The translations under genes were made by a program, and so were the position numbers. DNA of 64,000 bases. Origin: Minisyncoccia bacterium (lineage in GTDB: Bacteria; Patescibacteriota; Minisyncoccia; 2-02-FULL-40-12; IGHO2-01-FULL-4-A). The DNA is taken from NCBI GenBank assembly GCA_050015375.1, contig JBEKBN010000004.1, positions 15,188-79,187 of the forward strand. The letters are read 5' to 3'. The notes below the pieces were generated by a model that made no database searches, had not been told where the DNA came from, and was given only the letters and a program-made list of their open reading frames with translations. The stretch's first letter is position 1, and every line of letters starts with the position of its first letter. Shown piece after piece: positions 26,522-39,985 of the stretch.

Positions 26522-27604
26522 GTGACTTCTAACGGGATGAGTAACGGAGAAAAAATATATTCGGAGGTGATCAAACCCCATTTCAGCAAACGCCGTTTGA
26601 TTTTTTATTTGATAACGGCGGCGGCGCTGATACTCGTTTTTCTAAAATTCTCGGAATTGAAACTAGTCGGCCGGATCTTCTTGACGGCGAACTTGTTCTG
26701 GTTGGGCGGCATCATTATTACCCAGATCCTCAGCTACTATTCTCTGGCGCTGAATTACCGCGATGTTTTGATGATAAAAGACCTGAAGATAAAAGCCATC
26801 AGTTTGTATCCGGTAACTTTTATTGTTCAATTCTTGAATCAAGCTATTCCTTCGGCGACGATCTCCGGCCAGATATTTTTCATCCAATATCTGAAAAAAT
26901 ACGGTTTGTCGGTCATTGAAGGCATCGGCCGAGCGATACTCGAGATCCTGACCCTGATAATCGCTTTTGGCGTTTTATTTTTCATGGCGACAATTCTTTT
27001 GGCGTTTGATGGCCAATTGGCAAGCAATTGGGTCGTGGCTTATATCATGTATATTTTCCTGTTCATAAGCGTGGCGTTGATTTTGGCATTTTTCGCTTTT
27101 CAAAAAACAAAACAAGGCAGAATATCAAAGTGGCTCATTAATTTGTTCCACCGCTTTTTTGACAAGTACGACATAAAAAATAGGACCGATTATGTTTCCC
27201 TTATACTCGACCAAATGCGCCAGAATTTGAATCTGAAGGAGCTAACAAAGAAAAAGGGCTTGCTTTTCAAAGCGGCTTTCTGGCAAGGATTGATCTTGAT
27301 CCTCAATATTCTAACTCTGTTCTTCATTTCTTACGCCATCGGTTCGAAAATTTCTTTTTTGGTGGCGTTCATCGTTTTTACTTTAATAAAATTCATTTCC
27401 CTTATCGCGTTCGTTCCCGGCGCGCTGGGCATATTCGAAGGCGGGATGACTTTGCTTTTGATCTCGTTTGGCGTTGGTGCCGGTCCGGCTTTGACCATGA
27501 CTCTTCTTTTCCGTGCTTTTACCTTCTGGATTCCCATGCCCATCGGCTGGCTCTTGTATCGCTACTTCCTTCATCGCCAGGAATTAGAGAGTCCGGAACC
27601 ATAG
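26522..27604 (+). CDS. Flippase-like/UPF0104 (lysyl-PG synthase TM-region family) membrane protein
   Basis: This is a 360-aa polytopic protein with the architecture and sequence pattern of LPG_synthase_TM-type proteins. A second in-frame ATG lies at 26537. Confidence 0.55.
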   Translation: MTSNGMSNGEKIYSEVIKPHFSKRRLIFYLITAAALILVFLKFSELKLVGRIFLTANLFWLGGIIITQILSYYSLALNYRDVLMIKDLKIKAISLYPVTFIVQFLNQAIPSATISGQIFFIQYLKKYGLSVIEGIGRAILEILTLIIAFGVLFFMATILLAFDGQLASNWVVAYIMYIFLFISVALILAFFAFQKTKQGRISKWLINLFHRFFDKYDIKNRTDYVSLILDQMRQNLNLKELTKKKGLLFKAAFWQGLILILNILTLFFISYAIGSKISFLVAFIVFTLIKFISLIAFVPGALGIFEGGMTLLLISFGVGAGPALTMTLLFRAFTFWIPMPIGWLLYRYFLHRQELESPEP

Positions 27605-27714
27605 AGTTTATTAAATATTCAATTTTGAAATTATAGTTTATTAAAATATCAATTAATAAATAAAATTGGATTGTCAGGCGAAGTTGGGCGATATAGAGTC
27701 GCACGATTTCGGTG

Positions 27715-28056
27715 ATGATGATCAGTTTTGGAAATATGATGAATTATTGGGGTGGGCCGGGATATGTGGGTAGTGCCGGAGTGATCGGTTTTGTGGTAAG
27801 TATTTTGGTCACAATACTCGTGCTCTGTATAATCTTTGCGATAGTCCGGCGGGTTTTATGGGGTTGCGGTCGTTGTCATCAATGTCGGAAGATGTGGAGA
27901 CATGGAATGCACGGCATGCATGAACATGGCATGCACACGATGAACGGCGGACCTGGCTTGGGCGGTTCGGCGCTCGATATTCTCGACCAGCGCTACGCCA
28001 AAGGCGAAATAGACAAGAATGAATACGAATCAAAGAAAAAGGATCTGATGAGCTAA
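27715..28056 (+). CDS. SHOCT-domain small membrane protein with His/Met-rich segment
   Basis: One TM is followed by CGRCHQC and HGMHGMHEHGMHTM. The C-terminal SALDILDQRYAKGEIDKNEYESKKKDL is SHOCT-like. The terminator aaacccgcc-gaaa-ggcgggttt plus T lies at 28059-28085. Confidence 0.55.
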   Translation: MMISFGNMMNYWGGPGYVGSAGVIGFVVSILVTILVLCIIFAIVRRVLWGCGRCHQCRKMWRHGMHGMHEHGMHTMNGGPGLGGSALDILDQRYAKGEIDKNEYESKKKDLMS

Positions 28057-28160
28057 ATCCAAACCCGCCGAAAGGCGGGTTTTGAGTTGGGAGTTTATAA
28101 GTCAGTTGAACATATCGGACAAGGATGCTACGATAGAAATGCATATATACTACCATTAAC

Positions 28161-28910
28161 ATGATAAAAAAGGAGGAGGAAAAATTGGAAGCAATAAGAT
28201 TGAGAAAGCTGGGTTTATCTTATTCAGAGATATTGACAAAAGTACCAGTTGCAAAGTCGTCCCTAGGGTTATGGCTTAAATCGGTTGGTCTTTCAAAGAA
28301 AATAAAATATAATCTAACAGAAAAGAAAAGACTTGCAGGATTAAGAGGAGCCCAAAAAAGACACGAACAAAGAATTTCTTTAACAAAAAAGATACTTTAT
28401 AATGCTGAAAACGAAATCAAATATATTTCTAAGAGAGAGCTATGGCTTATCGGCGTATGCTTATATTGGGCCGAAGGTTCTAAGGAGAAAGAAAGACATC
28501 CAGGATCAAATGTTCAATTTTCAAATTCCGATCCAAAAATGATTCTTCTCTTTCTTAAATGGCTCGACGAAACGTGCAAAATCCCGCAAAACATGATATA
28601 TTTTGATATATACATTCACGAAAGCCATAGGAAAAGAGTTGATTTAGTCAAAGAATTCTGGCGCAATTGTACCGGCTACCCAAAAGAACAATTTGATCAC
28701 GTATATTACAAGAAGAATAAAATAAGGACAAAAAGAATAAATATTGGTGATTCTTATTATGGGGTTGTTAAGGTAAGAGTCAGGAGAAGTTCGGCTTTTC
28801 TTAGACGTATTGCTGGATGGATAGAAGGTGTTTGCGATGTAACTTTGCCGGGTGGTGTATTTGGTAACACGCCTGCCTTTGAAGCAGGAGACACTAGGTT
28901 CGAACCCTAG
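28161..28910 (+). CDS. AT-rich HTH-domain hypothetical protein whose 3' end reads into tRNA-Gln
   Basis: The N-terminal HTH-like segment LEAIRLRKLGLSYSEILTKV is followed by a basic region and a WLIGVCLYWAEGSKEK segment of uncertain LAGLIDADG-like character. The last 21 codons lie inside the tRNA (28846 onward). An alternative TTG start at 28186 follows an AGGAGGAGG SD. Confidence 0.4.
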   Translation: MIKKEEEKLEAIRLRKLGLSYSEILTKVPVAKSSLGLWLKSVGLSKKIKYNLTEKKRLAGLRGAQKRHEQRISLTKKILYNAENEIKYISKRELWLIGVCLYWAEGSKEKERHPGSNVQFSNSDPKMILLFLKWLDETCKIPQNMIYFDIYIHESHRKRVDLVKEFWRNCTGYPKEQFDHVYYKKNKIRTKRINIGDSYYGVVKVRVRRSSAFLRRIAGWIEGVCDVTLPGGVFGNTPAFEAGDTRFEP

Positions 28911-28921
28911 CCCGGCAGCCA
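28846..28921 (+). tRNA. tRNA-Gln (anticodon UUG), CCA encoded
   Basis: The cloverleaf was read directly. Acceptor arm tgccggg pairs with cccggca. The D-arm is gtgt-atttggta-acac. The anticodon arm is cctgc-cTTTGaa-gcagg. The variable loop is agaca. The T-arm is ctagg-ttcgaac-cctag. The discriminator is G, followed by CCA. The U1:A72 pair and G73 are Gln identity elements. Confidence 0.85.
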
Positions 28922-28929
28922 ATTAGTTT

Positions 28930-29325
28930 ATGAAAAACTCTACAGGCAAACTTTCATTTATTCTAAGACCATCAACTATCACTCATGGTGGGGTTGGAGT
29001 TTTTGCATTGCATGATATCGCAAAAGATACATACATGGAATTATTTTTGAAAGATTTTCAAGAAGAATTACTTGACGAGAAAAATGTGCCGAAGGAACTG
29101 CGGGGTTACTGTTTGCATCATGAAAGCGGGAAACTCCTATGTCCGAAACTTTTTAATCGGATGGATATAGGGAATTATCTAAATCATTCAGAAAATCCGA
29201 ATTTAAGATATGAGAAAGGAAAAGGTTATTTTGCTTTGCGTGATATAAAGGCCGGAGAAGAACTATTTGCAAATTATAGACAGCTTGGCGAGCCGGAGGA
29301 TAAAAGAAGAGATTATTATAAATAA
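28930..29325 (+). CDS. SET-domain protein (putative protein-lysine methyltransferase)
   Basis: GGVGVFALHDIAKDT, NHSENPN (compare NHSCxPN) and GEELFANY (compare GEELTFDY) are present. The 131-aa gene is AT-rich and begins 9 nt after the tRNA-Gln 3' end. Confidence 0.75.
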   Translation: MKNSTGKLSFILRPSTITHGGVGVFALHDIAKDTYMELFLKDFQEELLDEKNVPKELRGYCLHHESGKLLCPKLFNRMDIGNYLNHSENPNLRYEKGKGYFALRDIKAGEELFANYRQLGEPEDKRRDYYK

Positions 29326-29471
29326 TTTGTGGATAAAATAATTCCGACTTCCCGCCATAGGTGGGCAGGCAGTGCCAAGCGGTTGGCTTCATTGACTTGT
29401 TTCCAATAATATGCTAATCTGTATTTAGGTGTTTTACATCAAGCATACTAGACCAGAGAGGAGTAAGGGCA

Positions 29472-29927
29472 ATGAACAAAAGCAAAAAGAATGATGACTA
29501 TCCGCGAGCAGTGGTTCGTGAGATTGATGGCCAATTGGTATTGGATGATCCCGATGCCGTGGCGGTCATACATGCGGTAGGAAAGCACAACTGTCGCAAT
29601 ACACTGGGCTTGAATGCGGATCGCGTCCAACACTTTAAACAGCGACTGACAGATCGCGGTATGACGGCAAATCAAGCGGTAATCGTGATATTGAATGTTG
29701 ACGATGTTCACGGTGGCCCACTTGCCGATATGCTGATGCCTGGACACAACTGGCAGGAAATCCGCGATAAAGGTGAAGTTCCTTTTGCACGGGGACTTGC
29801 TATGCGTGATGGCATTCAAGAAGTACTTGGCACCTTTGACGAGAAAGCCGCCAAGAAATTGCTGGGTATGACCGGTGTGGCCGTCGTGGTTGTTGATCAC
29901 GGCGTTGCCGAAGTATTTGCAGCATAG
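29472..29927 (+). CDS. Hypothetical protein, conspicuously GC-rich relative to neighbours
   Basis: The promoter is TTGACT-17-TAATCT at about 29394-29424, with a GAGAGGAG SD. The 151-aa protein has no recognised domain. Its composition contrasts with the AT-rich genes on both sides. Confidence 0.5.
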   Translation: MNKSKKNDDYPRAVVREIDGQLVLDDPDAVAVIHAVGKHNCRNTLGLNADRVQHFKQRLTDRGMTANQAVIVILNVDDVHGGPLADMLMPGHNWQEIRDKGEVPFARGLAMRDGIQEVLGTFDEKAAKKLLGMTGVAVVVVDHGVAEVFAA

Positions 29928-30042
29928 TTGAAAGAACCCCGCGGTTATCACAACAGGCGCACGATCTACGGATACGGCGCCTTTTAATATACCAAAAATT
30001 GTTATAGACTAACTCTAATATCGTACCAAGCGGACAGCAACA

Positions 30043-30321
30043 ATGTATTTCGTCTATCTTTTAAAGTGCGGTGACGGGTCAATATATATCGGCATTACAA
30101 CCAGTGTTGAGCGGAGATTTCAGGAACATAAGTCCGGCAAAGGCGGGGCATACACCAGAGCAAAGAAAGCCGTTAAGATCTTATATTCTGAAAAATTCAG
30201 AACCAGAAGTAAAGCGTCAAAGCGGGAGGCGGAAATCAAAAATTGGCCGAGACGAGAAAAATTAGATTTAATCAAACATGGCAGATTTCAAACAACTACA
30301 AAAAATAATTTACAAAAATAA
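30043..30321 (+). CDS. GIY-YIG nuclease family protein (YhbQ/UPF0213-like)
   Basis: MYFVYLLKCGDGSIYIGITTSVERRFQEHKSGKG is a canonical GIY-YIG motif. Its 3' end overlaps the next gene by 44 nt. Confidence 0.75.
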   Translation: MYFVYLLKCGDGSIYIGITTSVERRFQEHKSGKGGAYTRAKKAVKILYSEKFRTRSKASKREAEIKNWPRREKLDLIKHGRFQTTTKNNLQK

Positions 30322-30580
30322 AGTCAAACACGGGTTTAATGTTACCGACGTTGATAGAGAATTCAATTTTATCTACGCCGAATTGGCCGAGGCGTTTCAC
30401 GCTTTCAGGAAAAAGTCACCGGAACTCGGGGAAGAAATAGCTGATGTCGTCATTTATCTTTTGGGTTTGGCAGAAATCCTCAAAATTGATTTAGGAAAAG
30501 AAATCGTGAAAAAGATGGATAAAAACAAAAAACGAGTTTACGAAAAAATTAATGGCGTGACGACGAGGGTTAAAGGTTAG
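30278..30580 (+). CDS. MazG-like nucleotide pyrophosphohydrolase domain protein
   Basis: EFNFIYAELAEAFHAFRK...LGEEIADVVIYLLGLAEI matches the all-alpha NTP-PPase (MazG/HisE-like) metal-binding EExxE/D pattern. Confidence 0.65.
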   Translation: MADFKQLQKIIYKNKVKHGFNVTDVDREFNFIYAELAEAFHAFRKKSPELGEEIADVVIYLLGLAEILKIDLGKEIVKKMDKNKKRVYEKINGVTTRVKG

Positions 30581-30602
30581 TTTTCAAATTATATTTCATG
30601 AA

Positions 30603-31115
30603 ATGGCCGGAGATGCTTACAAAATTTATAAAACTATGAACCAAGACACTTTTGAAAAAGTTTTAAAGATATCGGAGGAATATTTCAGTTCGAATACCGA
30701 TCCGAACCAGATGCCTATAAATAAAGATTCGGAGCAAAAACTTCTGTCAATTCATACGGATACGATAATTTATAAATTGGACGAAAAAGAGGAGCCAATA
30801 GCATGGGCAGTGGTAGTTCCGACAAGCACAGAGACCATGACTTCTTTTCTCGAAAAGAAGATCACCGAAAGAGAACTTCTGGACATTGCCGCAAAAGAGA
30901 AAAAATTCGATGCCTTGTATCTTTGCGCCGTTTTTGTTTTGCCCGAACATCGAAGAAAGGGATACGCAAAAGAATTATTATTGAACGCCATTGAAAAGAT
31001 TCCAAACAGTGACAAAGCGACTTTATATGCATGGATATATTCCGATGAAGGGAAAAAACTCGTTGAGGCGCTTACTAAAGAAACTGGCAGAAAAATTTTG
31101 ATAAAAAAGGGTTAG
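30603..31115 (+). CDS. GNAT-family N-acetyltransferase
   Basis: The acetyl-CoA binding motif LYLCAVFVLPEHRRKGYAKELL fits the Q/RxxGxG/A pattern. The length is 170 aa. Confidence 0.7.
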   Translation: MAGDAYKIYKTMNQDTFEKVLKISEEYFSSNTDPNQMPINKDSEQKLLSIHTDTIIYKLDEKEEPIAWAVVVPTSTETMTSFLEKKITERELLDIAAKEKKFDALYLCAVFVLPEHRRKGYAKELLLNAIEKIPNSDKATLYAWIYSDEGKKLVEALTKETGRKILIKKG

Positions 31116-31194
31116 AACCTCCCGTATTTGACATATACCACCATGTTGTGATATTATTATAGGTAGCAGTTATCTTAACAATTGGAGGTGAAAT

Positions 31195-31806
31195 TTGAGC
31201 GCGGAAACGATTGGTATGATATCAGGATTTCTGGTTGTTGTAAGTTGCATCCCGTATAGTATTAGAGTGCATCAGCGGAAAATCACACCCAATCTTGTTA
31301 CCTGGTCTCTCTGGACTCTTTTGGGATTCACACTCCTAATCACATATAAGAGTTCAGGTGCCGAAGCAAACATTTGGCCAGCCATATTCGGGTTCACAAA
31401 TCCGCTGATTATTACCATCCTTGCTTTTTGGAGGAATGGAATGAGGAAGAGATTAGATCGAGTGGAAATATTTTCACTCGTCTTTTGTTTGCTGGCGATC
31501 GGACTCTGGCTCGATGTCAGGCAAAAAAAAGAATTGGCTCAATTTTCGCTCTATCTGGCAATCATCGCCGATAGCTGTGCCGGGATTCCGACTCTTGAAC
31601 TTGCCTTGAAAACGCCCGAAAAAGACCGTCCGTTCGCCTGGACTTTGTTTGCGATTGGTTATGGTTTAGTTGTTTTCGCAATTACTGATCGGACATTTGC
31701 CAACTACTTTCTTCCGTCGTATATGTGTTCAAGCGGATTATTTGTTGCTTTTCTTTTTGCTCGATACAGATGGAGACAAAAATTACCGTGGATTGAATGG
31801 ATCTGA
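31195..31806 (+). CDS. Hypothetical polytopic membrane protein
   Basis: The promoter is TTGACA-18-TATTAT at 31126-31155, followed by a GGAGGTG SD and a TTG start. The 203-aa protein has 6 or more predicted TM segments. Confidence 0.5.
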   Translation: MSAETIGMISGFLVVVSCIPYSIRVHQRKITPNLVTWSLWTLLGFTLLITYKSSGAEANIWPAIFGFTNPLIITILAFWRNGMRKRLDRVEIFSLVFCLLAIGLWLDVRQKKELAQFSLYLAIIADSCAGIPTLELALKTPEKDRPFAWTLFAIGYGLVVFAITDRTFANYFLPSYMCSSGLFVAFLFARYRWRQKLPWIEWI

Positions 31807-31989
31807 CCCCGTCCGGATAAAGCCCTAAAAAGCTTTCATCCATCGGGGTTTTCTTTTGTTGACAAAATGCGGGCAATGGTGGTATATTTGATACATGCTA
31901 GTCGCATCTCATTTAGGTTTCGATTGCGTCATTTCTCTCATCGAAGGGTCATGTCTCCAGTGGAAACTTAGGAGACGAATAGTAATTAT

Positions 31990-33183
31990 ATGCAAAGAAG
32001 TTTCGGCCGAGCCTCGATGATTCGGGGCAAACGGCCAAGTCCGGGCAGAAGCCGTCCGCCGTTTCGAGGAGGCGGAAATCGCGGTTTTATTGACCCAAAA
32101 AAATTCATAAATAAAGCTGTCATCAACGAGCAGGTTGAAGATTTTATTCCCGAACATTCGTTCGCCGATTTTGATATTGACCCGAGATTGAAGAAAAATA
32201 TTTCCGACAAGGGTTACGCCACGCCGACGCCGATCCAAGACAAAGCCATCATCCCGGTTCTCAAAGACGCGGATGTTGTCGGTATTGCCAATACCGGCAC
32301 CGGTAAAACGGCCGTTTTTCTTGTTCCGCTTATAAACAAAGTTTTGCTCGACCAAAACCAGAAAATACTGATAATCGCGCCAACCCGCGAGCTGGGCATT
32401 CAGATCGACGAAGAGTTCCGTTGGTTCGCGAAAAATTTGCGGGTATTTTCAGCTTGTTGCGTCGGCGGAGCGAATATCAACCGCCAGATCGCCGACCTTT
32501 CGCGCAAACACAATTTTGTTATTGGCACTCCGGGTAGAATAAAAGACCTGATGGGTCGGGGATTGATAGACCTTTCGAAATTCAAAACATTGGTTCTCGA
32601 TGAGGCTGACCGGCTTTTGGATATGGGTTTTATCAATGACACCAGATACATGGCGCGCCTTTTGCCGAAACCGCACCAGACGCTTTTCTTTTCAGCAACA
32701 TTTTCTTGGGAGGTTCAGGCGTTGATCGCCGAATTTTTAAACAATCCGGTGATGATATCGGTAAAAAAACAGGATACCGCTAAAAATGTCGACCAGGATG
32801 TCATTAAACTCGAGAATGGCGATTTGAAAGTGGATGTTTTGAGTAGATTATTGAAGCATCCGGATTTCAACAAAGTATTGATTTTCGGCAGAACTAAACA
32901 TGGCGTGGAAAAACTTTCCAAAATTCTTTCAGCTCGGGGTTTCAGAGTGGAATCCATCCACGGCAACAAAAGCCATGGCCAAAGACAGCGGGCTCTCGGA
33001 CTTTTCAAGGAAAGCCGGGTTCAGGTACTGGTGGCGACCGATCTCGCGGCCCGAGGTTTGGATATTGATAATGTCAGCCATGTCATAAATTTCGACACGC
33101 CCAACACATACGAGGATTACATTCATCGCATCGGCAGAACCGGAAGAGCCGACAAAAAAGGCAAGGCCCTGACTTTTGTTTGA
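31990..33183 (+). CDS. DEAD-box ATP-dependent RNA helicase
   Basis: The Q-motif, Walker A TGTGKT, PTRELGIQ, DEAD, SAT and HRIGRTGRA are all present, with an Arg/Gly-rich N-terminal tail. The promoter is TTGACA-18-TATATT at about 31858-31888. The 5' UTR is about 100 nt and carries an AGGAGA SD. Confidence 0.9.
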   Translation: MQRSFGRASMIRGKRPSPGRSRPPFRGGGNRGFIDPKKFINKAVINEQVEDFIPEHSFADFDIDPRLKKNISDKGYATPTPIQDKAIIPVLKDADVVGIANTGTGKTAVFLVPLINKVLLDQNQKILIIAPTRELGIQIDEEFRWFAKNLRVFSACCVGGANINRQIADLSRKHNFVIGTPGRIKDLMGRGLIDLSKFKTLVLDEADRLLDMGFINDTRYMARLLPKPHQTLFFSATFSWEVQALIAEFLNNPVMISVKKQDTAKNVDQDVIKLENGDLKVDVLSRLLKHPDFNKVLIFGRTKHGVEKLSKILSARGFRVESIHGNKSHGQRQRALGLFKESRVQVLVATDLAARGLDIDNVSHVINFDTPNTYEDYIHRIGRTGRADKKGKALTFV

Positions 33184-33208
33184 GATGCAGATGGTGTATA
33201 ATCGAGCT

Positions 33209-33373
33209 ATGAGCAAAGGTTCATCCGGAGCCCTTTACGGACTGGGGTTTCTCGGGGCGGCGATCTATTATATCCGGCACGCCGATACATTTTGGGTAGG
33301 CGTACTGGGGATAATCAAGGCCATCATTTGGCCGGCCGTGCTCGTCTATAAGTTGTTCGCGTTTTTCAAATAA
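33209..33373 (+). CDS. Small membrane protein (55 aa)
   Basis: TGTATAAT-N6-ATG precedes MSKGSSGALYGLGFLGAAIYYI..., which has two predicted TM helices. The ORF track extends the frame to 33176. Confidence 0.45.
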   Translation: MSKGSSGALYGLGFLGAAIYYIRHADTFWVGVLGIIKAIIWPAVLVYKLFAFFK

Positions 33374-33380
33374 TTCCGCG

Positions 33381-33785
33381 ATGGAAACCCCGTCCGGCAA
33401 AACTAGAAAATTCATTAAATACGCTCTGATAATTTTGGCGGCGGTTCTTGTCGTCCTTTGCGCGGCGCTGATATTGCAATTCGTAAATTTGCAGAGATCG
33501 CCATTTTTGCGTTTTCACGGAATCCGGCCGCCTGATATTTTACGAAATCGCCAGCCACTGACCGTCAATGATGTTAATATGATCCAGCCCTGGATGACCT
33601 TTGATTATCTGAATCACATCTTTAACTTACCGCCGGATTATCTTAAAACCAAACTGGCTGTTTCCGATACGCGGTATCCGCGGCTTTCGCTCACCCATTT
33701 TATCCAAAACAATCATCTCGACTCGAACTCGGTCATGACTGAAGTTAAACGGGCGATAAGCGATTTCTTAAACGGCAAAAAATAG
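33381..33785 (+). CDS. Hypothetical membrane-anchored protein
   Basis: An N-terminal TM is followed by a soluble domain. No motif is recognised. Confidence 0.4.
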   Translation: METPSGKTRKFIKYALIILAAVLVVLCAALILQFVNLQRSPFLRFHGIRPPDILRNRQPLTVNDVNMIQPWMTFDYLNHIFNLPPDYLKTKLAVSDTRYPRLSLTHFIQNNHLDSNSVMTEVKRAISDFLNGKK

Positions 33786-33791
33786 AAGCCC

Positions 33792-34388
33792 ATGAGTTTA
33801 ATATTCAATTTTCTTCTTTCCTATCTTCTTCTTTATAAATACCTGACCCTGTTTGTAGTCGCCGTCGCCGCCGGCATTATTGTGCCCCTGCCTTTGAGCG
33901 CTCTGACTTTGGCTGTCGGCGCGTTTTCTAGCCAGGGATATTTCAGTTTTATTTTGTCTTTGATCGCGGTTGCCGGAGGCAATATTGTCGGCGACGCTTT
34001 TGATTATTATTTGGCAAAAAAATATGGCGAACTCGTCGTCCACAAATTCAAGATCGATCAATCCCGTTTTTTTATCCAGCTGGAAAAGTACACTCGCCAA
34101 AAAGCCGGCTGGACGATATTCATCACCCGATTCGCCGGTTCATTGGACCCGGTGGTGAATTTTTTGAGCGGTTTGGCCGGCGTGCCGTTCTTGAAATTCC
34201 TTTTTTTCGACTCTTTGGGCAATACCCTTGAAATATTTATTGTTCTTTACGCCGGCTATCTGGCGGGAAATTATTGGCAAAATATTTCCGGAGCCATTGA
34301 CATCATCGGCGGAATTATCATCGTTGCCATCATCATGTATTTTTTGTTCAAGATCTATGGCCGATATTCGCGGAAAAATCCGGCTTAG
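33792..34388 (+). CDS. DedA/VTT-domain family membrane protein
   Basis: GNIVGDAFDYYLAKKYG and FITRFAGSLDPVVNFLSGLAGVPFLKF are DedA (SNARE-associated) signatures. Confidence 0.7.
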   Translation: MSLIFNFLLSYLLLYKYLTLFVVAVAAGIIVPLPLSALTLAVGAFSSQGYFSFILSLIAVAGGNIVGDAFDYYLAKKYGELVVHKFKIDQSRFFIQLEKYTRQKAGWTIFITRFAGSLDPVVNFLSGLAGVPFLKFLFFDSLGNTLEIFIVLYAGYLAGNYWQNISGAIDIIGGIIIVAIIMYFLFKIYGRYSRKNPA

Positions 34389-34451
34389 CCCGTTTCAGGA
34401 ATTCTTAATGCTGGTATTGTATAGTGACGAATTATGGTTTAATATAAGCAT

Positions 34452-35948
34452 ATGAAACGAACATTTTTATCATTATTCGTAATAATTACAGTCGTTGCGG
34501 GTTTTTGGGGCGGAATATTTGCGGCCAACGCCATGGTTCCGACCTTATCGCTTTCGGCATCGGGCAATGGGGACATGGTCTCGGTGACGATCTACGGCGA
34601 CGCTTACGCTAACGCGATTTTGTATTATCAAAAAGCGGGTTACGGGATGCAATCCCAATATCTTGGCACGACGAATGCCAATGGCTATTTTTCGACCACG
34701 GTTAGCACATCCGGAGACGGCATTTCTACCGGCAGTTATGTTTATGTCGTTGTCAACAATCAGCAATCATCCCAGACATTATGGCCGTATAATTACAACA
34801 ACGGCTACAATAATTACGGTTCCCAACTTTCTTTGAGTCAAACCAGCATCTCTCTCAATGCAGGCGCCAGCGCCAATGTTACCGTCTACGGTTCCGGCAG
34901 TTATTATATCTCCTCCAACACCAATTCTAACATCGCCTCGGCCAATATTAGCGGCAACAACGTCTCAATTTACGGGATAGCTTACGGCAGCGACACCATT
35001 TCAATTTGCCAGTCAGGCGGCCAATGCGCCTCGCTTTATGTTACTGTCAATTACAACGGAACGAATTACAACAATTACGGTTATAACTACAACTACAGCA
35101 ACAATTATAGTTATAACTCGCCGACTCTCAGTCAGTCAAATATCACTGTGACCACCGGCCAGCCGACCTACATCACCATCAGCGGCGGCACCCAGCCCTA
35201 CACAATGTATCCCAGTTCGCCAAATATTTTCAATTCGGTCATCGGCGGCAACACGCTCACTATTTCGGGTTTGAATAACGGATCAGGCACACTCAGCGTT
35301 TGCTCGTCGGGCGGCAGCAGTTCCGGTTGCGCGACCTTGTATGTCACAGTTGGCTACCAGAATTATAATTACGGCTACAACACCAACTATAATTCTTGCT
35401 ATAGCGCCTACTGCAACCAACTTTCTTTGAGCCAGACCAGCATCTCTCTCAATGTCGGTTCCACTACCAATATCTCGGTCAATGGCGGTTCCGGCAGTTA
35501 TTATATCTCCTCCAATACCAATTCTAACATCGCCTCGGCCAATATTAGCGGCAACAACGTCTCAATTTATGGCGTTGCTTACGGCAGCGACACCATTTCA
35601 ATTTGCCAGTCAGGCGGCCAATGCGCCTCGCTTTATGTCACCGTCAATTACAACGGAACGAATTACAATAATTACGGCTATCAAACAGCGATAACATTCA
35701 GCCAAAATAATCCGACATTATCCATCGGTCAGAACACGTCGGTTTCTATTTTTGGCGGAACCGGCAGCGGTTATTATGTTGCCTATAACTCTAATTCAAG
35801 TGGGATCCAAGCAAATATCTCGGGCAATATTTTGAACATCACCGGCGAGACCAATAGCATTGACGCCATCACAGTATGCTCGGTTTCGACCAATTGTTCG
35901 GCGCTGACGGTCAACGTCGGCTACTACAATACACCTATTGTCTATTAA
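34452..35948 (+). CDS. Secreted/cell-surface protein with four bacterial Ig-like (Big_2-like) modules and Asn/Tyr-rich linkers
   Basis: A signal/TM N-terminus is followed by repeated modules of the form SISLN...VTVYGSGS...ISGNNVSIYG.AYGSDTISICQSGGQCASLYVTV, each with one Cys pair. The linkers read NYNNYGYNYNYSNNYSYN. Confidence 0.65.
   Translation: MKRTFLSLFVIITVVAGFWGGIFAANAMVPTLSLSASGNGDMVSVTIYGDAYANAILYYQKAGYGMQSQYLGTTNANGYFSTTVSTSGDGISTGSYVYVVVNNQQSSQTLWPYNYNNGYNNYGSQLSLSQTSISLNAGASANVTVYGSGSYYISSNTNSNIASANISGNNVSIYGIAYGSDTISICQSGGQCASLYVTVNYNGTNYNNYGYNYNYSNNYSYNSPTLSQSNITVTTGQPTYITISGGTQPYTMYPSSPNIFNSVIGGNTLTISGLNNGSGTLSVCSSGGSSSGCATLYVTVGYQNYNYGYNTNYNSCYSAYCNQLSLSQTSISLNVGSTTNISVNGGSGSYYISSNTNSNIASANISGNNVSIYGVAYGSDTISICQSGGQCASLYVTVNYNGTNYNNYGYQTAITFSQNNPTLSIGQNTSVSIFGGTGSGYYVAYNSNSSGIQANISGNILNITGETNSIDAITVCSVSTNCSALTVNVGYYNTPIVY
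34824..35683 (+). repeat. Two about 260-bp near-identical direct repeats inside the surface-protein gene (34824-35086 and 35421-35683)
   Basis: The DNA is almost identical over about 260 nt, for example caactttctttgagtcaaaccagcatctctctcaatg versus caactttctttgagccagaccagcatctctctcaatg. The repeats encode two Big_2-like modules. Confidence 0.8.
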
Positions 35949-36129
35949 AATTCATTGATCCGTGGGCAAGTTCATTACTGTCGGTTTGATCCTAGGGACA
36001 ACTTTGGGCGGGCTGATACCTTCGCTTTGGGGCGCGGACTATTTTTCTGTTTCGGGAATTATTTTTTCAACGCTCGGCGGCGCCGCCGGCATCTGGGTCG
36101 GTTACAAGTTAGCGCAATGAGAGAAAAAG

Positions 36130-37173
36130 TTATTTTTTAGATTTTCCAAGTTTCTTATTGAGTAAATCCATAATTTCTCTTTCGATCAATTTTACCCGGT
36201 TGATCTCGTAAGGATAACCGGTGAGTTCCATGAAGCCACGACCGGTGGCCTTTTTATTTTCAAAAATACCCTCAATTGCCAGCGGCCCTTCCCAATAATT
36301 TATGAATCCGTAAAGCATCTCTTGAGCCCGGATCATTGGCTTCAAATTCAGTTCGGCGTTAAATTTCGGAATTTTAATTGTCCAGGAAAGGGGATATCTG
36401 GTGAGGGTCTTGGGGCTGGTCCAATAATCATCGGCGTTGATGAATTCAACTCGATCGGTGCTTAAAGTCCGATTGTCGGGAAAAATAGCGCTAGCCAAAT
36501 GGGTTGACATGTCGCCCTCGACGCATCGCACGCAAATGAGATCGGCGTGGTTTTCAAGTTGGATGGAGAACCAGTCCCAATTGATCTTTTGATGTTTCGG
36601 ATCAGACCACTGATGATCAAACCAGGATTTTCCGGTAACTTTTTTAACTTTACCGTCAATAAAAATTTCGCCTTCGGTTTCCAGGTCGGTCAGCGAATAA
36701 TAATATGTCGTCTCGTCATTCACGATCAGAAAACCGGTTCCACCTTCAAGAAGCGGCTTCTTTTTGGATTTCAAATAAAGATCGAGATTTTCATTTTTGA
36801 TGTGATAATAATAAGGCCCAACCTCAGTTATCTCGGAAACCATTTTACTGAAAGGCGACGCAAAGCGGACATCCAAACGGCCGTCACGGAAACTGTCGTC
36901 GGTCACAAAACAGATCGGTTTGATGGCCGGATAACATTTTTGTTCTTTGATATCAGATAAAATATGATGGGAAAAATAGTTATTCTTTTTAGGAATGAAA
37001 ATTGAAGAAGGAAATTTCGATTTGCTTGGATTGACCCTGAACAAACAATTCATGAATGCGTACTCATTACCTGAAGCGTCAAAAAGATGGCCGTTAAAGT
37101 ACCACCATTCGAGGCCGGTGTTGTGGATCGTTTCGTCTTCGGGAAATTTTATCGGTTTAAAAATTTCGGTCAT
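36130..37173 (-). CDS. AttH/CrtC-like (hydroxyneurosporene synthase family, lipocalin-like) protein
   Basis: The N-terminal ...HNTGLEWWYFNGHL... hallmark is present, and the length is consistent with the family. The stop overlaps the rarA start. Confidence 0.55.
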   Translation of the reverse strand: MTEIFKPIKFPEDETIHNTGLEWWYFNGHLFDASGNEYAFMNCLFRVNPSKSKFPSSIFIPKKNNYFSHHILSDIKEQKCYPAIKPICFVTDDSFRDGRLDVRFASPFSKMVSEITEVGPYYYHIKNENLDLYLKSKKKPLLEGGTGFLIVNDETTYYYSLTDLETEGEIFIDGKVKKVTGKSWFDHQWSDPKHQKINWDWFSIQLENHADLICVRCVEGDMSTHLASAIFPDNRTLSTDRVEFINADDYWTSPKTLTRYPLSWTIKIPKFNAELNLKPMIRAQEMLYGFINYWEGPLAIEGIFENKKATGRGFMELTGYPYEINRVKLIEREIMDLLNKKLGKSKK

Positions 37174-38300
37174 TTCAAATATTTCTTTCCTTTTAATTTT
37201 TCCGGCAAAAGATCATCTTTGGTGTAGCGCTCGTAATTTTTGCCGTAACCGAGTTCTTTCATCAATTTTGTCGGAGCGTTTCGAATTTTCAACGGCACCG
37301 GTAGATTACCATATTTTTTGACGTCGGTCACCGCTTCCATGTAAGCATTGTAGGAACTCCGGTCTTTGTTGGCTTTGGCGAGATAAACCGTTCCACTGGC
37401 AAGGTTGATCTGGGCTTCGGGCAAACCGATGGTTTCCACCGCCCGGAAAACATCGTTTGCAACAACCAAAGCCGTCGGCTGGGCGTTGCCGATATCTTCG
37501 CTTGCAAATATCACCATCCGGCGGGCGATGAATTTCGGGTCTTCGCCGGCGTCAATCATCCGCGCCAGATAATAAAGCGCGGCATCGGGCTGGCTGGCCC
37601 GCAAACTTTTGATGAAAGCGCTGATGACGTTGTAATGTTCTTCGCCTTTTTTGTCGTATCTCAAAAATTTTGACTGCAAAGCATCGGTCAGTGTCTTGAC
37701 CGAAATTTTTCCGTAAAGTTTCTGGGCCGATTCCAGGGTTGAAATAGCTTGGCGGGCGTCGCCGTTGGCCATGCCGACCAGCCAGTCGAGGGATTTATCG
37801 TCGATTTTCAATTCGGTCCGGCGGATTATCTCTTTCATTTCGTCGGCTGAATAATCTTCCAGAACAAAAACCCGGCAGCGCGACAAAAGCGGAGAGATGA
37901 CCTCGAAACTAGGATTTTCGGTCGTGGCGCCGATGAGGGTTATCTCGCCGGTTTCAACAAAAGGCAAAAGATAATCCTGCTGGGCTTTGTTGAAACGATG
38001 GATCTCGTCGAGAAATAAAATTTTCGGTTCGAGTGTTCGTCGGCCGACAATTTTCCGGATATCATCCTTGCCGGCGGACACCGCCGAGAGCTCAAAAAGT
38101 TCACCGCCCAGAGAGCGGGAATATATTTTGGCCAAAGTGGTTTTGCCCGAACCCGGCGGTCCCCAGAGAACGAAAGAAAACCGGTGTTTTTTCTCGATCG
38201 CCAAACGCAATGGTTTTGCCGGTCCGACCAGATGTTTCTGGCCGATGAATTCGTCGAGAGTTCTGGGCCTGATTTTTGAAGCCAATGGTTCATTGCTCAT
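37170..38300 (-). CDS. rarA: Replication-associated recombination protein A (RarA/MgsA AAA+ ATPase)
   Basis: [12 protein letters not shown], Walker [22 protein letters not shown], the sensor SRC and a MgsA C-terminal domain are present. The start is leaderless-type: TAGAAT-N6-ATG on the minus strand. Confidence 0.9.
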
Positions 38301-38447
38301 GGCGTAATTCTAGTAAAGTTCAGACAAATAATCCAATATGGCCAACTTAAACTTATTGCTATATTAGGATTTATTTATTTCTATTTCTGTGCTAGAATCG
38401 CTTCGGATCACAATATCCATTTAAAGTTCTTTTTAGAAGGAGAAGCT

Positions 38448-38681
38448 ATGGTCGTTGTAGTTCAAAGGATGAAAAAAGAGCGGGAAACAGGAAAATTAAA
38501 ACCCGAAATATTTGTCGCACTTATTGATGAGAAATTATCCGTTGACGATTCTAGCGCAGAAGCCATCAAGCAGGCCATGGAGGCCGACAAAATTCGGACA
38601 GATTGTGCTTTTGTCACGGATAGCTATATCACAAATTTGGACGAACCGTTCATTTCCAAAGATGAATCCAAAGACGAATAA
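38448..38681 (+). CDS. Small acidic hypothetical protein (77 aa)
   Basis: A strong AAGGAG SD lies 5 nt before the ATG. A promoter with TGcTAGAAT lies at about 38380-38392. The terminator hairpin accggcc-gaaccat-ggctggt plus T6 lies at 38691-38722. Confidence 0.45.
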   Translation: MVVVVQRMKKERETGKLKPEIFVALIDEKLSVDDSSAEAIKQAMEADKIRTDCAFVTDSYITNLDEPFISKDESKDE

Positions 38682-38794
38682 AATCATTTCACCGGCCGAA
38701 CCATGGCTGGTTTTTTGTTAAAACCGATCTGGAAATATCCCACATAAGTTCTTAATCTTCGTATTTTATAATCGTTTGGTTACATGAAAAATCC

Positions 38795-39888: not shown

Positions 39889-39985
39889 CCGGGTCGGCAT
39901 TTGTTTTTTAACCGGCGGTGTGATTTAATTAAATGGATGCTTTGATCAATCAATAATAACGATCAAGGTCGGTTTTTTAATCAAC

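What the first reader, a model, noticed from the sequence alone, without database searches (positions are those of the whole stretch)
28100..31120. tRNA-Gln-flanked mosaic accessory island: SET methyltransferase, GC-rich orphan, and a coupled GIY-YIG / MazG-like / GNAT triad
A tRNA-Gln(UUG) at 28846-28921 is bracketed by genes whose base composition differs sharply from the housekeeping backbone. Upstream is an AT-rich HTH protein whose ORF runs 65 nt into the tRNA. Directly downstream is an AT-rich SET-domain protein. Next comes a clearly GC-rich orphan ORF (29472-29927) with its own consensus promoter. Then a GIY-YIG nuclease overlaps a MazG-like NTP pyrophosphohydrolase by 44 nt (translational coupling), followed 22 nt later by a GNAT acetyltransferase. 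tRNA 3' ends are classic integration sites. MazG-like NTPases, GNAT tRNA-acetylating toxins and GIY-YIG nucleases each occur in phage-defence, toxin-antitoxin and nucleotide-depletion systems, but this particular three-gene combination is not a named system I recognise. It could be a small defence or addiction module carried on an integrated element.
Basis: partly seen in the sequence, partly recalled or inferred. Interest (0 to 1): 0.75.

Follow-up and report, generated by a model that had tools for sequence, protein, structure and literature searches.

The report
Nuclease gene welded to tRNA-Gln hotspot
The suspected three-gene defence island is a run of unrelated small genes in a fast-changing spot beside a tRNA gene of an ultra-small (CPR) bacterium; the one remarkable part is a homing-endonuclease-like gene that sits hard against that same tRNA in every relative examined.

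Summary
The coordinates, overlaps (65, 44 and 22 nt) and domain calls (SET, GIY-YIG, MazG-like, GNAT) are correct. HEG below means homing-endonuclease gene. The window comes from a Patescibacteria (Paceibacteria/Minisyncoccia) MAG.

The interpretation mostly fails.
- No integrase and no att repeat are present, and no protein hits PADLOC.
- The "orphan" has at least 600 homologs at 72-88% identity, and its GC matches the backbone.
- GIY-YIG/MazG/GNAT is not a conserved module. A co-occurring sister haplotype replaces GNAT and the next gene with four unrelated genes. MazG homologs have unrelated neighbours elsewhere. None of 80 related tRNA-Gln loci carries MazG or GNAT.

What is really there is a gene-turnover hotspot. 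It starts at the 3' end of a conserved dnaX...tRNA-Gln(UUG) anchor and ends before a DEAD-box helicase gene.

The notable part is the "HTH protein". It is an HTH plus a single LAGLIDADG domain with a conserved catalytic-type Glu. In 77 of 77 evaluable metagenome loci it lies immediately 5' of tRNA-Gln(UUG), and in 55 of them its stop codon is inside or beyond the tRNA. It is under purifying selection (dN/dS about 0.1), stays AT-rich whatever the host GC, is patchily present, and sits at recombination breakpoints. I read it as a free-standing homing endonuclease tied to tRNA-Gln.

The parts
25307..26416 (+). dnaX (DNA polymerase III gamma/tau): left backbone anchor
   Evidence: Pfam families on record. 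The order T4SS-like ATPase, GtrA, DnaX, then tRNA-Gln is conserved in relatives L006, L007, L009, L011, L016, L018 and L099. DnaX lies upstream of the LAGLIDADG gene in 52 of 80 metagenome loci.
27712..28056 (+). Small SHOCT-domain protein with backbone-like GC, followed by a terminator-like hairpin at 28055-28088
   Evidence: Pfam SHOCT 3e-9. GC 0.481, z +0.8. Inverted repeat I14.
28161..28910 (+). HTH plus single LAGLIDADG-domain gene (homing-endonuclease-like). Its last 65 nt are the 5' part of the tRNA-Gln gene
28440..28490 (+). LAGLIDADG-like motif ELWLIGVCLYWAEGSKEK (residues 93-110), with invariant E105-G106
   Evidence: Invariant columns L96, L101, W103, E105, G106, K108 and E109 in 29-30 aligned homologs.
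28846..28921 (+). tRNA-Gln(UUG): conserved anchor and boundary between syntenic and variable DNA
   Evidence: ARAGORN. Rfam RF00005, 66 bits. tRNA-Gln follows dnaX in relatives. Among related loci the upstream 1.5-kb flank is homologous in 500 locus pairs, the downstream flank in 11.
28930..29325 (+). Small SET-domain protein, the most AT-rich gene of the window: variable cargo
   Evidence: Pfam SET 9.3e-12. GC3 0.273, z -3.5. A 47%-identical homolog lies 3' of tRNA-Gln in only 1 of 80 loci, L170.
29472..29927 (+). Conserved Patescibacteria protein family of unknown function (not an orphan)
30043..30321 (+). UPF0213-type stand-alone GIY-YIG nuclease domain. It contains the left strain breakpoint at about 30230
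   Evidence: Pfam GIY-YIG 2.4e-19. PDB 1zg2 and 1ywl (UPF0213), E about 1e-17. Homologs start within about 350 nt 3' of tRNA-Gln in 6 of 80 loci. Breakpoint.
30230..31906 (.). Strain-variable cassette: the 3' end of GIY-YIG, MazG-like, GNAT and a 203-aa ORF with no Pfam hit, which looks hydrophobic by eye
   Evidence: Sister haplotype contigs L004, L086 and L087 are identical to the window over 29412-30229 and 86% identical over 30230-30603. They then carry four different genes and rejoin the window at 31907 with 96% identity. The window version is supported by independent assemblies L003 (19472-30541) and L001 (30089-40580), both 100% identical.
30278..30580 (+). MazG-like all-alpha NTP pyrophosphohydrolase (dCTPP1/RS21-C6-like)
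   Evidence: PF12643 28.3 bits, PF03819 22.4 bits. PDB pyrophosphatase 4qgp and dCTP pyrophosphatase 1. Homologs of 64-71% identity are widespread, including a Clostridium sp. cluster seen on at least 1000 contigs.
30603..31115 (+). GNAT acetyltransferase of unassigned subfamily: variable cargo
   Evidence: Pfam Acetyltransf_1 2e-7. No PDB sequence hit. No PADLOC hit. Absent from the sister haplotype and from all 80 related loci.
31195..31806 (+). 203-aa ORF with no Pfam hit, hydrophobic stretches by eye: part of the variable cassette
   Evidence: No Pfam or NCBIfam hit. Absent from the sister haplotype L086.
31990..33183 (+). DEAD-box helicase: right backbone anchor
   Evidence: Pfam DEAD/Helicase_C on record. 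96% identical in the sister haplotype from 31907 onward. Also found 3.8-5.2 kb 3' of tRNA-Gln in L010 and L115, with different cargo in between.

Best explanation
HEG below means homing-endonuclease gene. The block is not one integrated island and not a three-gene system. It is the start of a gene-turnover hotspot in a Paceibacteria (CPR) chromosome. The hotspot begins exactly at the 3' end of a conserved dnaX...tRNA-Gln(UUG) anchor and ends before a DEAD-box helicase gene.

The hotspot is filled with small stand-alone genes from broadly distributed families:
- a SET-domain protein;
- a conserved protein of unknown function;
- a UPF0213 GIY-YIG nuclease domain;
- a dCTPP1-like MazG pyrophosphatase;
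- a GNAT acetyltransferase;
- a 203-aa ORF with no Pfam hit.

These genes are swapped by recombination between co-occurring and diverged lineages, which explains the AT-rich, foreign-looking composition.

The ORF that runs into the tRNA is an HTH plus single-LAGLIDADG protein whose gene is obligately joined to the 5' edge of tRNA-Gln(UUG).

Inferred mechanism:
- It is a free-standing homing endonuclease gene that uses the conserved tRNA-Gln gene as its landing site and homology arm.
- There is essentially no spacer, so the tRNA is probably co-transcribed with the ORF or from a promoter inside it.
- Breaks made at this site, repaired by gene conversion, move the nuclease gene and co-convert neighbouring DNA. 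This keeps the 3' flank in flux.
- The 65-nt read-through in this genome is incidental, caused by loss of the ORF's own stop codon.

Shown: the anatomy, the strict linkage, purifying selection, patchy presence, recombination breakpoints and flank asymmetry. Inferred: endonuclease activity, homing, co-transcription, and a causal link between the nuclease and the hotspot.
For: HEG below means homing-endonuclease gene.

Hotspot, not a module:
- The sister haplotype is identical up to 30229. It then has a divergent MazG (86% identity) and four different genes in place of GNAT and the 203-aa ORF. It rejoins the window at 31907.
- Close relatives L104 and L105 are 91.5% identical over the nuclease gene plus tRNA and 80% identical upstream. 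They share no homology downstream of the tRNA.
- Across 79 loci the upstream flank is homologous in 500 pairs and the downstream flank in 11, three of which are identical duplicates.
- L010 and L115 carry other cargo (amylase, DoxX, SDR, cupin, methyltransferase) between tRNA-Gln and the DEAD helicase.
- PADLOC gives zero hits.
- MazG, GNAT and the "orphan" occur in 0 of 80 related loci.
- MazG homologs have unrelated neighbours.
- The five lowest-GC genes of the window lie in this block.

LAGLIDADG gene:
- E105-G106 is invariant in the LAGLIDADG-like motif.
- 77 of 77 evaluable loci have tRNA-Gln(UUG) on the same strand, from 61 nt downstream of the ORF to overlapping it. The stop codon is inside or beyond the tRNA in 55 loci.
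- The same geometry occurs in a Wolfebacteria locus, L099.
- The gene is absent from dnaX...tRNA-Gln loci of L006, L009, L010, L011, L016 and L018.
- L008 keeps only a 91-codon C-terminal remnant.
- dN/dS is 0.08-0.22 in nine close pairs.
- Its GC3 stays between 0.19 and 0.46 while host dnaX GC3 ranges from 0.20 to 0.67 (slope 0.28; lower than dnaX in 41 of 43 loci).
- L132 and L155 are about 100% identical through dnaX and the first roughly 200 nt of the ORF. Identity then drops to 70-78% across the LAGLIDADG half and the tRNA, and is lost beyond it.
- The closest homolog, L194, stops 5 nt before the same tRNA allele. The tRNA-encoded tail is disordered in the model.
Against: - No enzymatic evidence exists.
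- No Pfam LAGLIDADG model, and no other Pfam family, matches the protein at E <= 0.01. A profile search of PDB sequences finds no LAGLIDADG protein.
- The protein is as conserved as DnaX (mean pairwise identity 53% against 50%). Its divergence correlates with DnaX divergence (r = 0.68). Together with the low dN/dS this also fits a vertically inherited, domesticated host protein.
- The tRNA stays intact in nuclease-bearing alleles, so how self-cleavage would be avoided is unexplained. The target site is unknown.
- No nuclease-less allele was seen in the window's own population.
- The 80 loci are the best tblastn hits, so more distant family members could lie elsewhere.
- The available relatives of the window are distant (DnaX at most 63% identity), and only one sister haplotype was found.
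- GIY-YIG and MazG do stay adjacent and overlapping in both haplotypes, so a two-gene unit is not excluded.
Confidence: 0.6

Rival explanations
1. One reading: an element integrated at the tRNA-Gln 3' end carries a coupled GIY-YIG/MazG-like/GNAT defence or addiction module.
For: - The variable, AT-rich DNA begins at the tRNA 3' end.
- GIY-YIG and MazG overlap by 44 nt here and by 38 nt in the sister haplotype.
- MazG-like and GNAT families match phage pyrophosphatase and acetyltransferase PHROGs.
- In relative L007 a large serine recombinase gene abuts this site.
Against: - No integrase and no att repeat.
- Zero PADLOC hits.
- The sister haplotype replaces GNAT.
- MazG homologs have unrelated neighbours.
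- MazG and GNAT are absent from all 80 related tRNA-Gln loci.
- No MazG relative was found on IMG/VR contigs.
- No antitoxin-like small ORF is present.
Confidence: 0.05
2. The HTH-LAGLIDADG protein is a domesticated, non-mobile DNA-binding protein (WhiA-like). It would regulate transcription of tRNA-Gln or its own operon, be inherited vertically, and be lost in some lineages.
For: - The top structural hit is WhiA.
- Purifying selection is strong.
- The protein is as conserved as DnaX, and divergences correlate at r = 0.68.
- All 80 best hits are intact ORFs.
- The position is fixed in a conserved dnaX neighbourhood.
Against: - The acidic residue of the LAGLIDADG motif is invariant. By my own recollection, which was not checked here, WhiA domains lack that catalytic acid.
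- GC3 does not follow the host.
- Presence among relatives is patchy, and L008 holds a truncated remnant.
- A recombination breakpoint lies inside the gene, with a diverged 3' half plus tRNA.
- There is one LAGLIDADG domain and the HTH is N-terminal, unlike WhiA.
Confidence: 0.22
3. GIY-YIG plus MazG-like form a functional two-gene operon, for example nucleotide-pool sanitation coupled to a repair nuclease. GNAT would be an unrelated neighbour.
For: The pair, with overlapping reading frames, is kept in both haplotypes even though the MazG allele is only 86-87% identical.
Against: - MazG homologs at 70-71% identity lack a GIY-YIG neighbour.
- None of the eight GIY-YIG copies near tRNA-Gln in related loci has a MazG neighbour.
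- The haplotype breakpoint falls inside GIY-YIG, so the pairing can be explained by where recombination happened.
Confidence: 0.1
4. The ORF-tRNA overlap is a meaningless accident of ORF calling, and the tRNA neighbourhood is ordinary.
For: The 65-nt extension itself is incidental. The closest homolog stops 5 nt before the tRNA, and the tail is disordered in the model.
Against: Linkage of this gene family to tRNA-Gln(UUG) holds in 77 of 77 loci, with a gap of at most 61 nt. This cannot be chance for a gene family with more than 2100 members.
Confidence: 0.03

Closest known systems
Free-standing homing endonuclease SegB in the phage T4 tRNA gene cluster (PMC2330249)
   Same: A stand-alone nuclease gene embedded among tRNA genes. 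According to the paper's title and abstract it promotes preferred inheritance of its own gene and the flanking tRNA region.
   Different: SegB is a GIY-YIG enzyme in a phage. This one has a LAGLIDADG fold with an N-terminal HTH, lies in a CPR bacterial chromosome, is tied to one specific tRNA, and its reading frame abuts or overlaps the tRNA. Its activity is untested.
LAGLIDADG homing endonucleases in rRNA insertion sequences/introns of CPR bacteria (PMC11270868; cited in PMC13011429)
   Same: The same phylum and the same nuclease superfamily. Both associate with a highly conserved RNA gene.
   Different: Those enzymes are encoded inside intervening sequences of rRNA genes. This gene is free-standing, with no group I intron detected. 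It lies outside the mature tRNA at its 5' edge, and no Pfam LAGLIDADG model detects it. The 2026 survey of tRNA introns in Patescibacteria never mentions Gln (0 occurrences).
WhiA (LAGLIDADG-derived transcription factor)
   Different: By my own recollection, not checked here, WhiA has two degenerate LAGLIDADG domains followed by a C-terminal HTH and lacks the catalytic acid. This protein has an N-terminal HTH, one LAGLIDADG domain and an invariant Glu-Gly in the motif.
tRNA-linked genomic islands inserted by tyrosine or serine integrases
   Same: Variable, compositionally atypical DNA begins at the 3' end of a tRNA gene.
   Different: No integrase, no duplicated tRNA 3' end, no defined right att site. 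The cargo changes piecemeal, with breakpoints inside genes.
Nuclease genes at boundaries of genetic exchange between phages (PMC10448857)
   Same: Nuclease genes mark the edges of exchanged segments. Here the LAGLIDADG gene lies at the tRNA boundary, and GIY-YIG contains the haplotype breakpoint at 30230.
   Different: That pattern was described for phage genomes. This is a cellular CPR chromosome. Only the title and the start of that paper's abstract were read here.
GNAT toxin-antitoxin pairs (TacT/AtaT type) and MazG-containing defence systems
   Same: They share only the superfamily-level domains.
   Different: No antitoxin partner, no PADLOC model hit, and no conserved gene pairing.

Membership tests
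Integrase-mediated tRNA-linked genomic island | Integrase or recombinase gene at one end of the island | tested here: not met
   Pfam and NCBIfam scans of all eight ORFs between 27.7 and 31.8 kb give no recombinase domain.
Integrase-mediated tRNA-linked genomic island | Direct repeat of the tRNA 3' end (attL/attR) bounding the island | tested here: not met
   The 25-nt tRNA 3' end has no second copy in the 64-kb window at up to 3 mismatches. No relevant repeat in 26.4-32.1 kb.
Integrase-mediated tRNA-linked genomic island | Atypical composition and absence from related genomes | tested here: met
   The five lowest-GC genes of the window lie here. The content differs in the sister haplotype and in all relatives.
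Known anti-phage defence systems (PADLOC-DB 2.0) | Match of component proteins to system HMMs | tested here: not met
   Zero families for all six proteins at E <= 0.01. DefenseFinder is not available here.
GNAT-type toxin-antitoxin (TacT/AtaT/ItaT-like) | GNAT toxin with an adjacent small RHH/DUF1778-type antitoxin, conserved as a pair | tested here: not met
   The neighbours are MazG-like and a 203-aa ORF with no Pfam hit, and no antitoxin domain is present. GNAT is absent from the sister haplotype and from 80 related loci.
Conserved three-gene operon (GIY-YIG, MazG, GNAT) | Recurrent co-occurrence of the three genes as neighbours | tested here: not met
   Four MazG homolog contexts were read. 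Only the 87% relative has GIY-YIG, and none has GNAT. MazG and GNAT are absent from 80 tRNA-Gln loci.
LAGLIDADG homing endonuclease | alpha-beta-beta-alpha-beta-beta-alpha core fold | tested here: met
LAGLIDADG homing endonuclease | LAGLIDADG motif ending in a conserved acidic residue plus Gly at the end of helix 1 | tested here: met
   LYWAEGSKEK, with E105, G106, K108 and E109 invariant in 29-30 homologs.
LAGLIDADG homing endonuclease | Match to curated sequence models (Pfam LAGLIDADG families) | tested here: not met
   No Pfam family at E <= 0.01. A profile search of PDB sequences finds no LAGLIDADG protein.
LAGLIDADG homing endonuclease | Fixed genomic site in a conserved target gene, with presence/absence polymorphism | tested here: met
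   77 of 77 loci lie at the 5' edge of tRNA-Gln(UUG). The gene is absent in L006, L009, L010, L011, L016 and L018, and L008 holds a remnant.
LAGLIDADG homing endonuclease | Site-specific double-strand cleavage of the empty allele, and homing | not testable with these tools
   Needs biochemistry or genetics. Indirect hints are host-independent GC3 and a recombination breakpoint inside the gene.
WhiA-type domesticated LAGLIDADG regulator | Two degenerate LAGLIDADG domains plus a C-terminal HTH, with the catalytic acid lost (feature list from my own knowledge) | tested here: not met
UPF0213 / stand-alone GIY-YIG domain | GIY-YIG catalytic domain of about 90 aa with no extra domain | tested here: met
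   Pfam 69.8 bits. PDB BH0048 and EF2693, E about 1e-17.
MazG-like all-alpha NTP pyrophosphohydrolase | Match above the curated cut-off to PF12643/PF03819 | tested here: met
   28.3 bits against 27, and 22.4 against 22. dCTPP1/RS21-C6 and pyrophosphatase 4qgp in PDB. The margins are narrow, but the 64-71% identical homologs carry the same Pfam calls.

The most novel reading that the evidence does not exclude
A family of free-standing LAGLIDADG homing endonucleases, with more than 2000 members in Patescibacteria, has colonised one precise chromosomal site: the 5' edge of tRNA-Gln(UUG).

- The gene shares a transcript with the tRNA. The stop codon often lies inside the tRNA, so RNase P processing would leave a non-stop mRNA and throttle nuclease expression.
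- Its repeated double-strand breaks seed a chromosomal gene-turnover hotspot 3' of the tRNA.
- A second nuclease family, UPF0213 GIY-YIG, is recurrently recruited to the other side of the same tRNA.

This would be a cellular counterpart of the nuclease-marked exchange boundaries seen in phages.
Probability: 0.25. Interest if true: 0.7.

Novelty: new variant of a known kind. Interest (0 to 1): 0.5.

Why it matters
- **For the original claim:** it removes a false lead. Three adjacent small enzymes with "defence-like" domains next to a tRNA are not a system here. AT-rich blocks beside tRNAs in CPR genomes can be integrase-free recombination hotspots.
- **For the new observation:** a large, unannotated LAGLIDADG-type family strictly tied to one tRNA gene offers three things. 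It is a tractable case of how a selfish nuclease persists under purifying selection in streamlined genomes. It is a possible driver of local genome plasticity in uncultured CPR bacteria. It is also a new pool of compact, probably homodimeric, site-specific DNA-binding or cleaving scaffolds with a predictable natural target.
- **For annotation:** pipelines that trim or discard ORFs overlapping tRNAs will systematically mis-call this family.

Tried and rejected
1. **Circular or excised junction.** Gene calls on contig L002 showed a 114-aa gene after GNAT, which suggested a GNAT-to-SHOCT junction. blastn showed that L002 is collinear and 100% identical to window 30103-32225. The 114-aa gene is only a different gene call.
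2. **The "orphan" as a non-coding RNA.** It has long ORFs on both strands. Rfam at gathering threshold and at E <= 1 finds only the tRNA. The protein alignment has conserved, indel-free coding columns.
4. **att site.** None found.
5. **Phage origin.** MazG has no relative on IMG/VR contigs. The "orphan" family appears on 10 IMG/VR contigs, eight of them 128-608 kb long. That is uninformative, because these may be huge phages or mis-binned CPR DNA.
6. **A special tRNA allele travelling only with the nuclease gene.** A first alignment suggested this. The 80-locus set shows nuclease-bearing loci with both D-arm types, and the overlap length simply depends on whether TAA falls in frame in the D-loop.
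7. **Sequence-level link to solved LAGLIDADG proteins.** A profile search of PDB sequences found none. Only fold comparison shows the relationship.

Full report
HEG below means homing-endonuclease gene.

**Observation.** ARAGORN finds a single tRNA in the window, tRNA-Gln(UUG) at 28846-28921, and Rfam confirms it at 66 bits. ORF 28161-28910 ends 65 nt inside the tRNA. Pfam confirms SET (28930-29325, 9e-12), GIY-YIG (30043-30321, 2e-19), MazG-like (30278-30580, PF12643 at 28.3 bits against a cut-off of 27) and GNAT (30603-31115, 2e-7). GIY-YIG and MazG overlap by 44 nt, and a 22-nt gap precedes GNAT.

The composition shift is real. Of 61 ORFs in the window, the five with the lowest GC are SET, the HTH ORF, MazG, GNAT and GIY-YIG, at 0.354-0.380 against a mean of 0.452 (sd 0.038).

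Two descriptors fail.
- ORF 29472-29927 is neither an orphan nor GC-rich relative to the backbone. Its GC is 0.50 (z +1.3) and its GC3 z is -0.5. Its high first-codon-position GC reflects an Ala/Val/Asp/Gly-rich protein.
- Its "consensus promoter" is a 9/12 match, in a region where promoter-like sites are no more frequent than in shuffled sequence.

**Source and backbone.** Exact-protein look-ups and homolog names place the window in a Minisyncoccia/Paceibacteria (CPR) MAG. Independent assemblies cover 19472-30541 and 30089-40580 at 100% identity, so the region is not an assembly chimera.

The nearest species-level genomes have DnaX at 52-63% identity. They share the order PMT2, small ORF, T4SS-like ATPase, GtrA, DnaX, (LPG synthase), tRNA-Gln(UUG). 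The tRNA is therefore an ancestral anchor downstream of dnaX, not something that arrived with an element. A DEAD-box helicase orthologous to 31990-33183 lies 3.8-5.2 kb beyond tRNA-Gln in L010 and L115, with entirely different genes in between: amylase, DoxX, SDR, cupin and a methyltransferase.

**Is it an integrated island?**
- No recombinase domain occurs among the eight ORFs.
- The tRNA 3' end is not repeated anywhere in the window, and there are no bounding repeats.
- Yet the DNA 3' of the tRNA is strikingly unstable.
- Contigs from the same JGI samples (L004, L086, L087) are identical to the window from 29412 to 30229.
- They fall to 86% identity from 30230, which lies inside the GIY-YIG 3' end, through MazG.
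- They then carry 2'-5' RNA ligase, NTP_transf_6, UCP014422 and His_Phos_1 genes in place of GNAT and the 203-aa ORF.
- They rejoin the window at 31907 with 96% identity.
- In a set of 79 related loci, the 1.5 kb upstream of the HTH gene is homologous in 500 locus pairs. The 1.5 kb downstream of the tRNA is homologous in only 11 pairs, three of them duplicates.
- L104 and L105 are 91.5% identical over the HTH gene plus tRNA and 80% identical upstream, but they share nothing downstream.

The accessory character is therefore supported. The mechanism looks like piecemeal recombination at a hotspot rather than integrase-mediated insertion.

**Is the triad a system?** No.
- PADLOC has no hit for any of the six proteins.
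- The MazG-like protein belongs to a very widespread family of about 100 aa. Members are 64-71% identical in other CPR lineages and in a Clostridium sp. cluster seen on at least 1000 contigs.
- Its closest solved relatives are a pyrophosphatase and dCTP pyrophosphatase 1/RS21-C6.
- Its homologs sit next to NUDIX, sugar-nucleotide or unrelated genes.
- GIY-YIG is a UPF0213-type stand-alone domain (PDB BH0048 and EF2693, 1e-17).
- GNAT has no close characterised relative and no antitoxin partner, and the sister haplotype lacks it.
- MazG, GNAT and the "orphan" occur in none of 80 related tRNA-Gln loci.
- Only the GIY-YIG/MazG adjacency is kept, in the two haplotypes of this one lineage.

**The "orphan".**
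- It has at least 600 homologs at 72-88% identity across Liptonbacteria, Azambacteria, Uhrbacteria and other Parcubacteria.
- A profile search finds 452 clusters at 50% identity.
- Some members carry an N-terminal extension of about 95 aa.
- Its neighbours vary between loci.
- It is a conserved CPR family of unknown function.

**The HTH ORF is the interesting part.**
- It has more than 2100 homologs, one of which UniRef labels as a homing endonuclease.
- The alignment shows an N-terminal HTH and a motif LYWAEGSKEK, with E105, G106, K108 and E109 invariant.
- The AF2 model (pLDDT 81) has an alpha-beta-beta-alpha-beta-beta-alpha core.
- No Pfam LAGLIDADG model and no PDB sequence profile detects it.

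A metagenome scan returned 80 loci. In all 77 that have enough downstream sequence, tRNA-Gln(UUG) follows on the same strand. The ORF's stop codon falls as follows:

| Stop codon position | Loci |
|---|---|
| Upstream of the tRNA (16 of these within 10 nt; largest gap 61 nt) | 22 |
| Inside the tRNA | 41 |
| Beyond the tRNA | 14 |

Among the 41 loci with the stop inside the tRNA, the overlap is 15-16 nt in 26, which puts the stop at the TAA of the D-loop. It is 21 nt in 10 and 64-65 nt in 3.

The same 65-nt geometry occurs in a Wolfebacteria locus. The 65-nt extension in the window is incidental. The closest homolog (73% aa, L194) has its own stop 5 nt before the same tRNA allele, and the tRNA-encoded tail is disordered in the model.

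**Evolutionary behaviour of that gene.**
- It is functional: dN/dS is 0.08-0.22 in nine close pairs.
- It is about as conserved as DnaX (mean identity 53% against 50%). Pairwise divergences correlate with those of DnaX at r = 0.68, so much of its history is vertical or between relatives.
- It is absent from the dnaX...tRNA-Gln loci of L006, L009, L010, L011, L016 and L018.
- It is reduced to a 91-codon C-terminal remnant in L008.
- Its GC3 stays between 0.19 and 0.46 while host dnaX GC3 ranges from 0.20 to 0.67. The slope is 0.28, and it is lower than dnaX in 41 of 43 loci. It has not ameliorated to its hosts, as expected for a gene that keeps moving.
- L132 and L155 are about 100% identical through the end of dnaX and the first roughly 200 nt of the ORF. 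Identity then drops to 70-78% over the LAGLIDADG half and the tRNA, and is lost after the tRNA. This is a recombination breakpoint inside the gene, with a foreign 3' half, tRNA and flank.

**Mechanism: what is shown and what is inferred.** Shown are the fold, the conserved acidic motif, the strict linkage to tRNA-Gln(UUG), selection, patchiness, the host-independent GC3, the breakpoints and the flank asymmetry.

I infer, at about 0.55-0.6, that this is a free-standing LAGLIDADG homing endonuclease gene whose site is the 5' edge of the tRNA-Gln gene.
- The absence of a spacer implies co-transcription with the tRNA, or a tRNA promoter inside the ORF.
- Breaks and gene conversion at the site would contribute to the turnover of the 3' flank.
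- Where the stop codon lies in the tRNA, RNase P processing would leave a non-stop mRNA. This is speculative.
- UPF0213 GIY-YIG genes are also enriched at this tRNA. Six of the eight hits in the 80 loci start within about 350 nt of its 3' end, and one copy (L105) is frameshifted.
- In the window GIY-YIG lies 1.1 kb from the tRNA, with SET and the conserved family in between, and it contains the haplotype breakpoint.

The main rival (about 0.2) is a domesticated WhiA-like regulator. That reading is favoured by the strong conservation and by WhiA being the top structural hit.

**Comparison with known systems.** The closest analogues are:
- SegB, a free-standing GIY-YIG endonuclease in the T4 tRNA cluster (PMC2330249);
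- LAGLIDADG enzymes in CPR rRNA intervening sequences (PMC11270868);
- the observation that nuclease genes mark exchange boundaries in phages (PMC10448857).

A 2026 survey of tRNA introns in Patescibacteria reports HNH enzymes in tRNA-Asn introns and never mentions Gln (0 occurrences). Two further text searches found no description of this linkage. The library is incomplete, so prior description cannot be excluded.

**Verdict.** The finding as interpreted, a novel three-gene defence or addiction island, is not supported and on its own would rate low. The locus is still worth attention for a different reason. It holds a large, unannotated LAGLIDADG-type family bound to tRNA-Gln(UUG), sitting at the edge of a recombination hotspot. 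I rate it a new variant of a known kind, interest 0.5.

**Limits.**
- There is no biochemistry.
- Relatives of the window are distant.
- The 80 loci are the best hits only, so distant family members may behave differently.
- Causality between the nuclease and the hotspot is inferred.

Noticed in passing
window 34452-35948 (repeat copies 34823-35084 and 35417-35681): A 498-aa ORF with no Pfam family on record contains an internal direct repeat of about 265 nt at 90% identity.
   Followed up: no
L007 12380-14402 (Parcubacteria bacterium Licking1014_17): The LAGLIDADG gene is intact, but no tRNA-Gln follows it. A 470-aa large serine recombinase gene on the opposite strand overlaps its 3' end, and the contig ends soon after. 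This may be a recombinase element inserted into the tRNA-Gln site.
   Followed up: partly
L008 5358-6464 (Yanofskybacteria RIFOXYD1_FULL_42_10): Only a 91-codon C-terminal remnant of the LAGLIDADG gene precedes tRNA-Gln. A DNA methyltransferase gene follows the tRNA.
   Followed up: partly
L011 17110-19253: About 3-5 kb 3' of tRNA-Gln in the closest GTDB relative lie a 500-aa ORF and a 214-aa ORF. By eye the first looks like a LexA-like/DNA-methyltransferase fusion and the second like a restriction enzyme. Neither was scanned against any family library. A small GIY-YIG-like ORF follows.
   Followed up: no
L105, L137, L169, L174, L176, L177 (within about 350 nt 3' of tRNA-Gln): UPF0213-type GIY-YIG genes recur immediately downstream of tRNA-Gln(UUG). 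Six of the eight hits in 565 kb of loci lie there, and the L105 copy is frameshifted. A second nuclease family may be tied to this tRNA.
   Followed up: partly
L184-L193 (IMG/VR contigs): The conserved 151-aa family (window 29472-29927) occurs at 49-60% identity on ten IMG/VR contigs, eight of them 128-608 kb long. These may be huge phages or mis-classified CPR DNA.
   Followed up: no
window 26424-26439 and 26522-26537: A perfect 16-nt inverted repeat brackets the 82-nt spacer between dnaX and the LPG-synthase-like gene.
   Followed up: no
window 22251-24683: An 810-aa T4SS/TrwB-like ATPase (DUF87, T4SS-DNA_transf) lies in conserved synteny with GtrA and dnaX across many Paceibacteria loci. 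It appears to be backbone rather than a mobile-element gene.
   Followed up: no
window 28171-28187: Inside the first codons of the LAGLIDADG ORF, a strong Shine-Dalgarno-like AGGAGGAGG lies 5 nt before an in-frame TTG (codon 9). One public gene call starts there and gives 241 aa. Homologs conserve the longer N-terminus, so the ATG at 28161 is preferred.
   Followed up: partly
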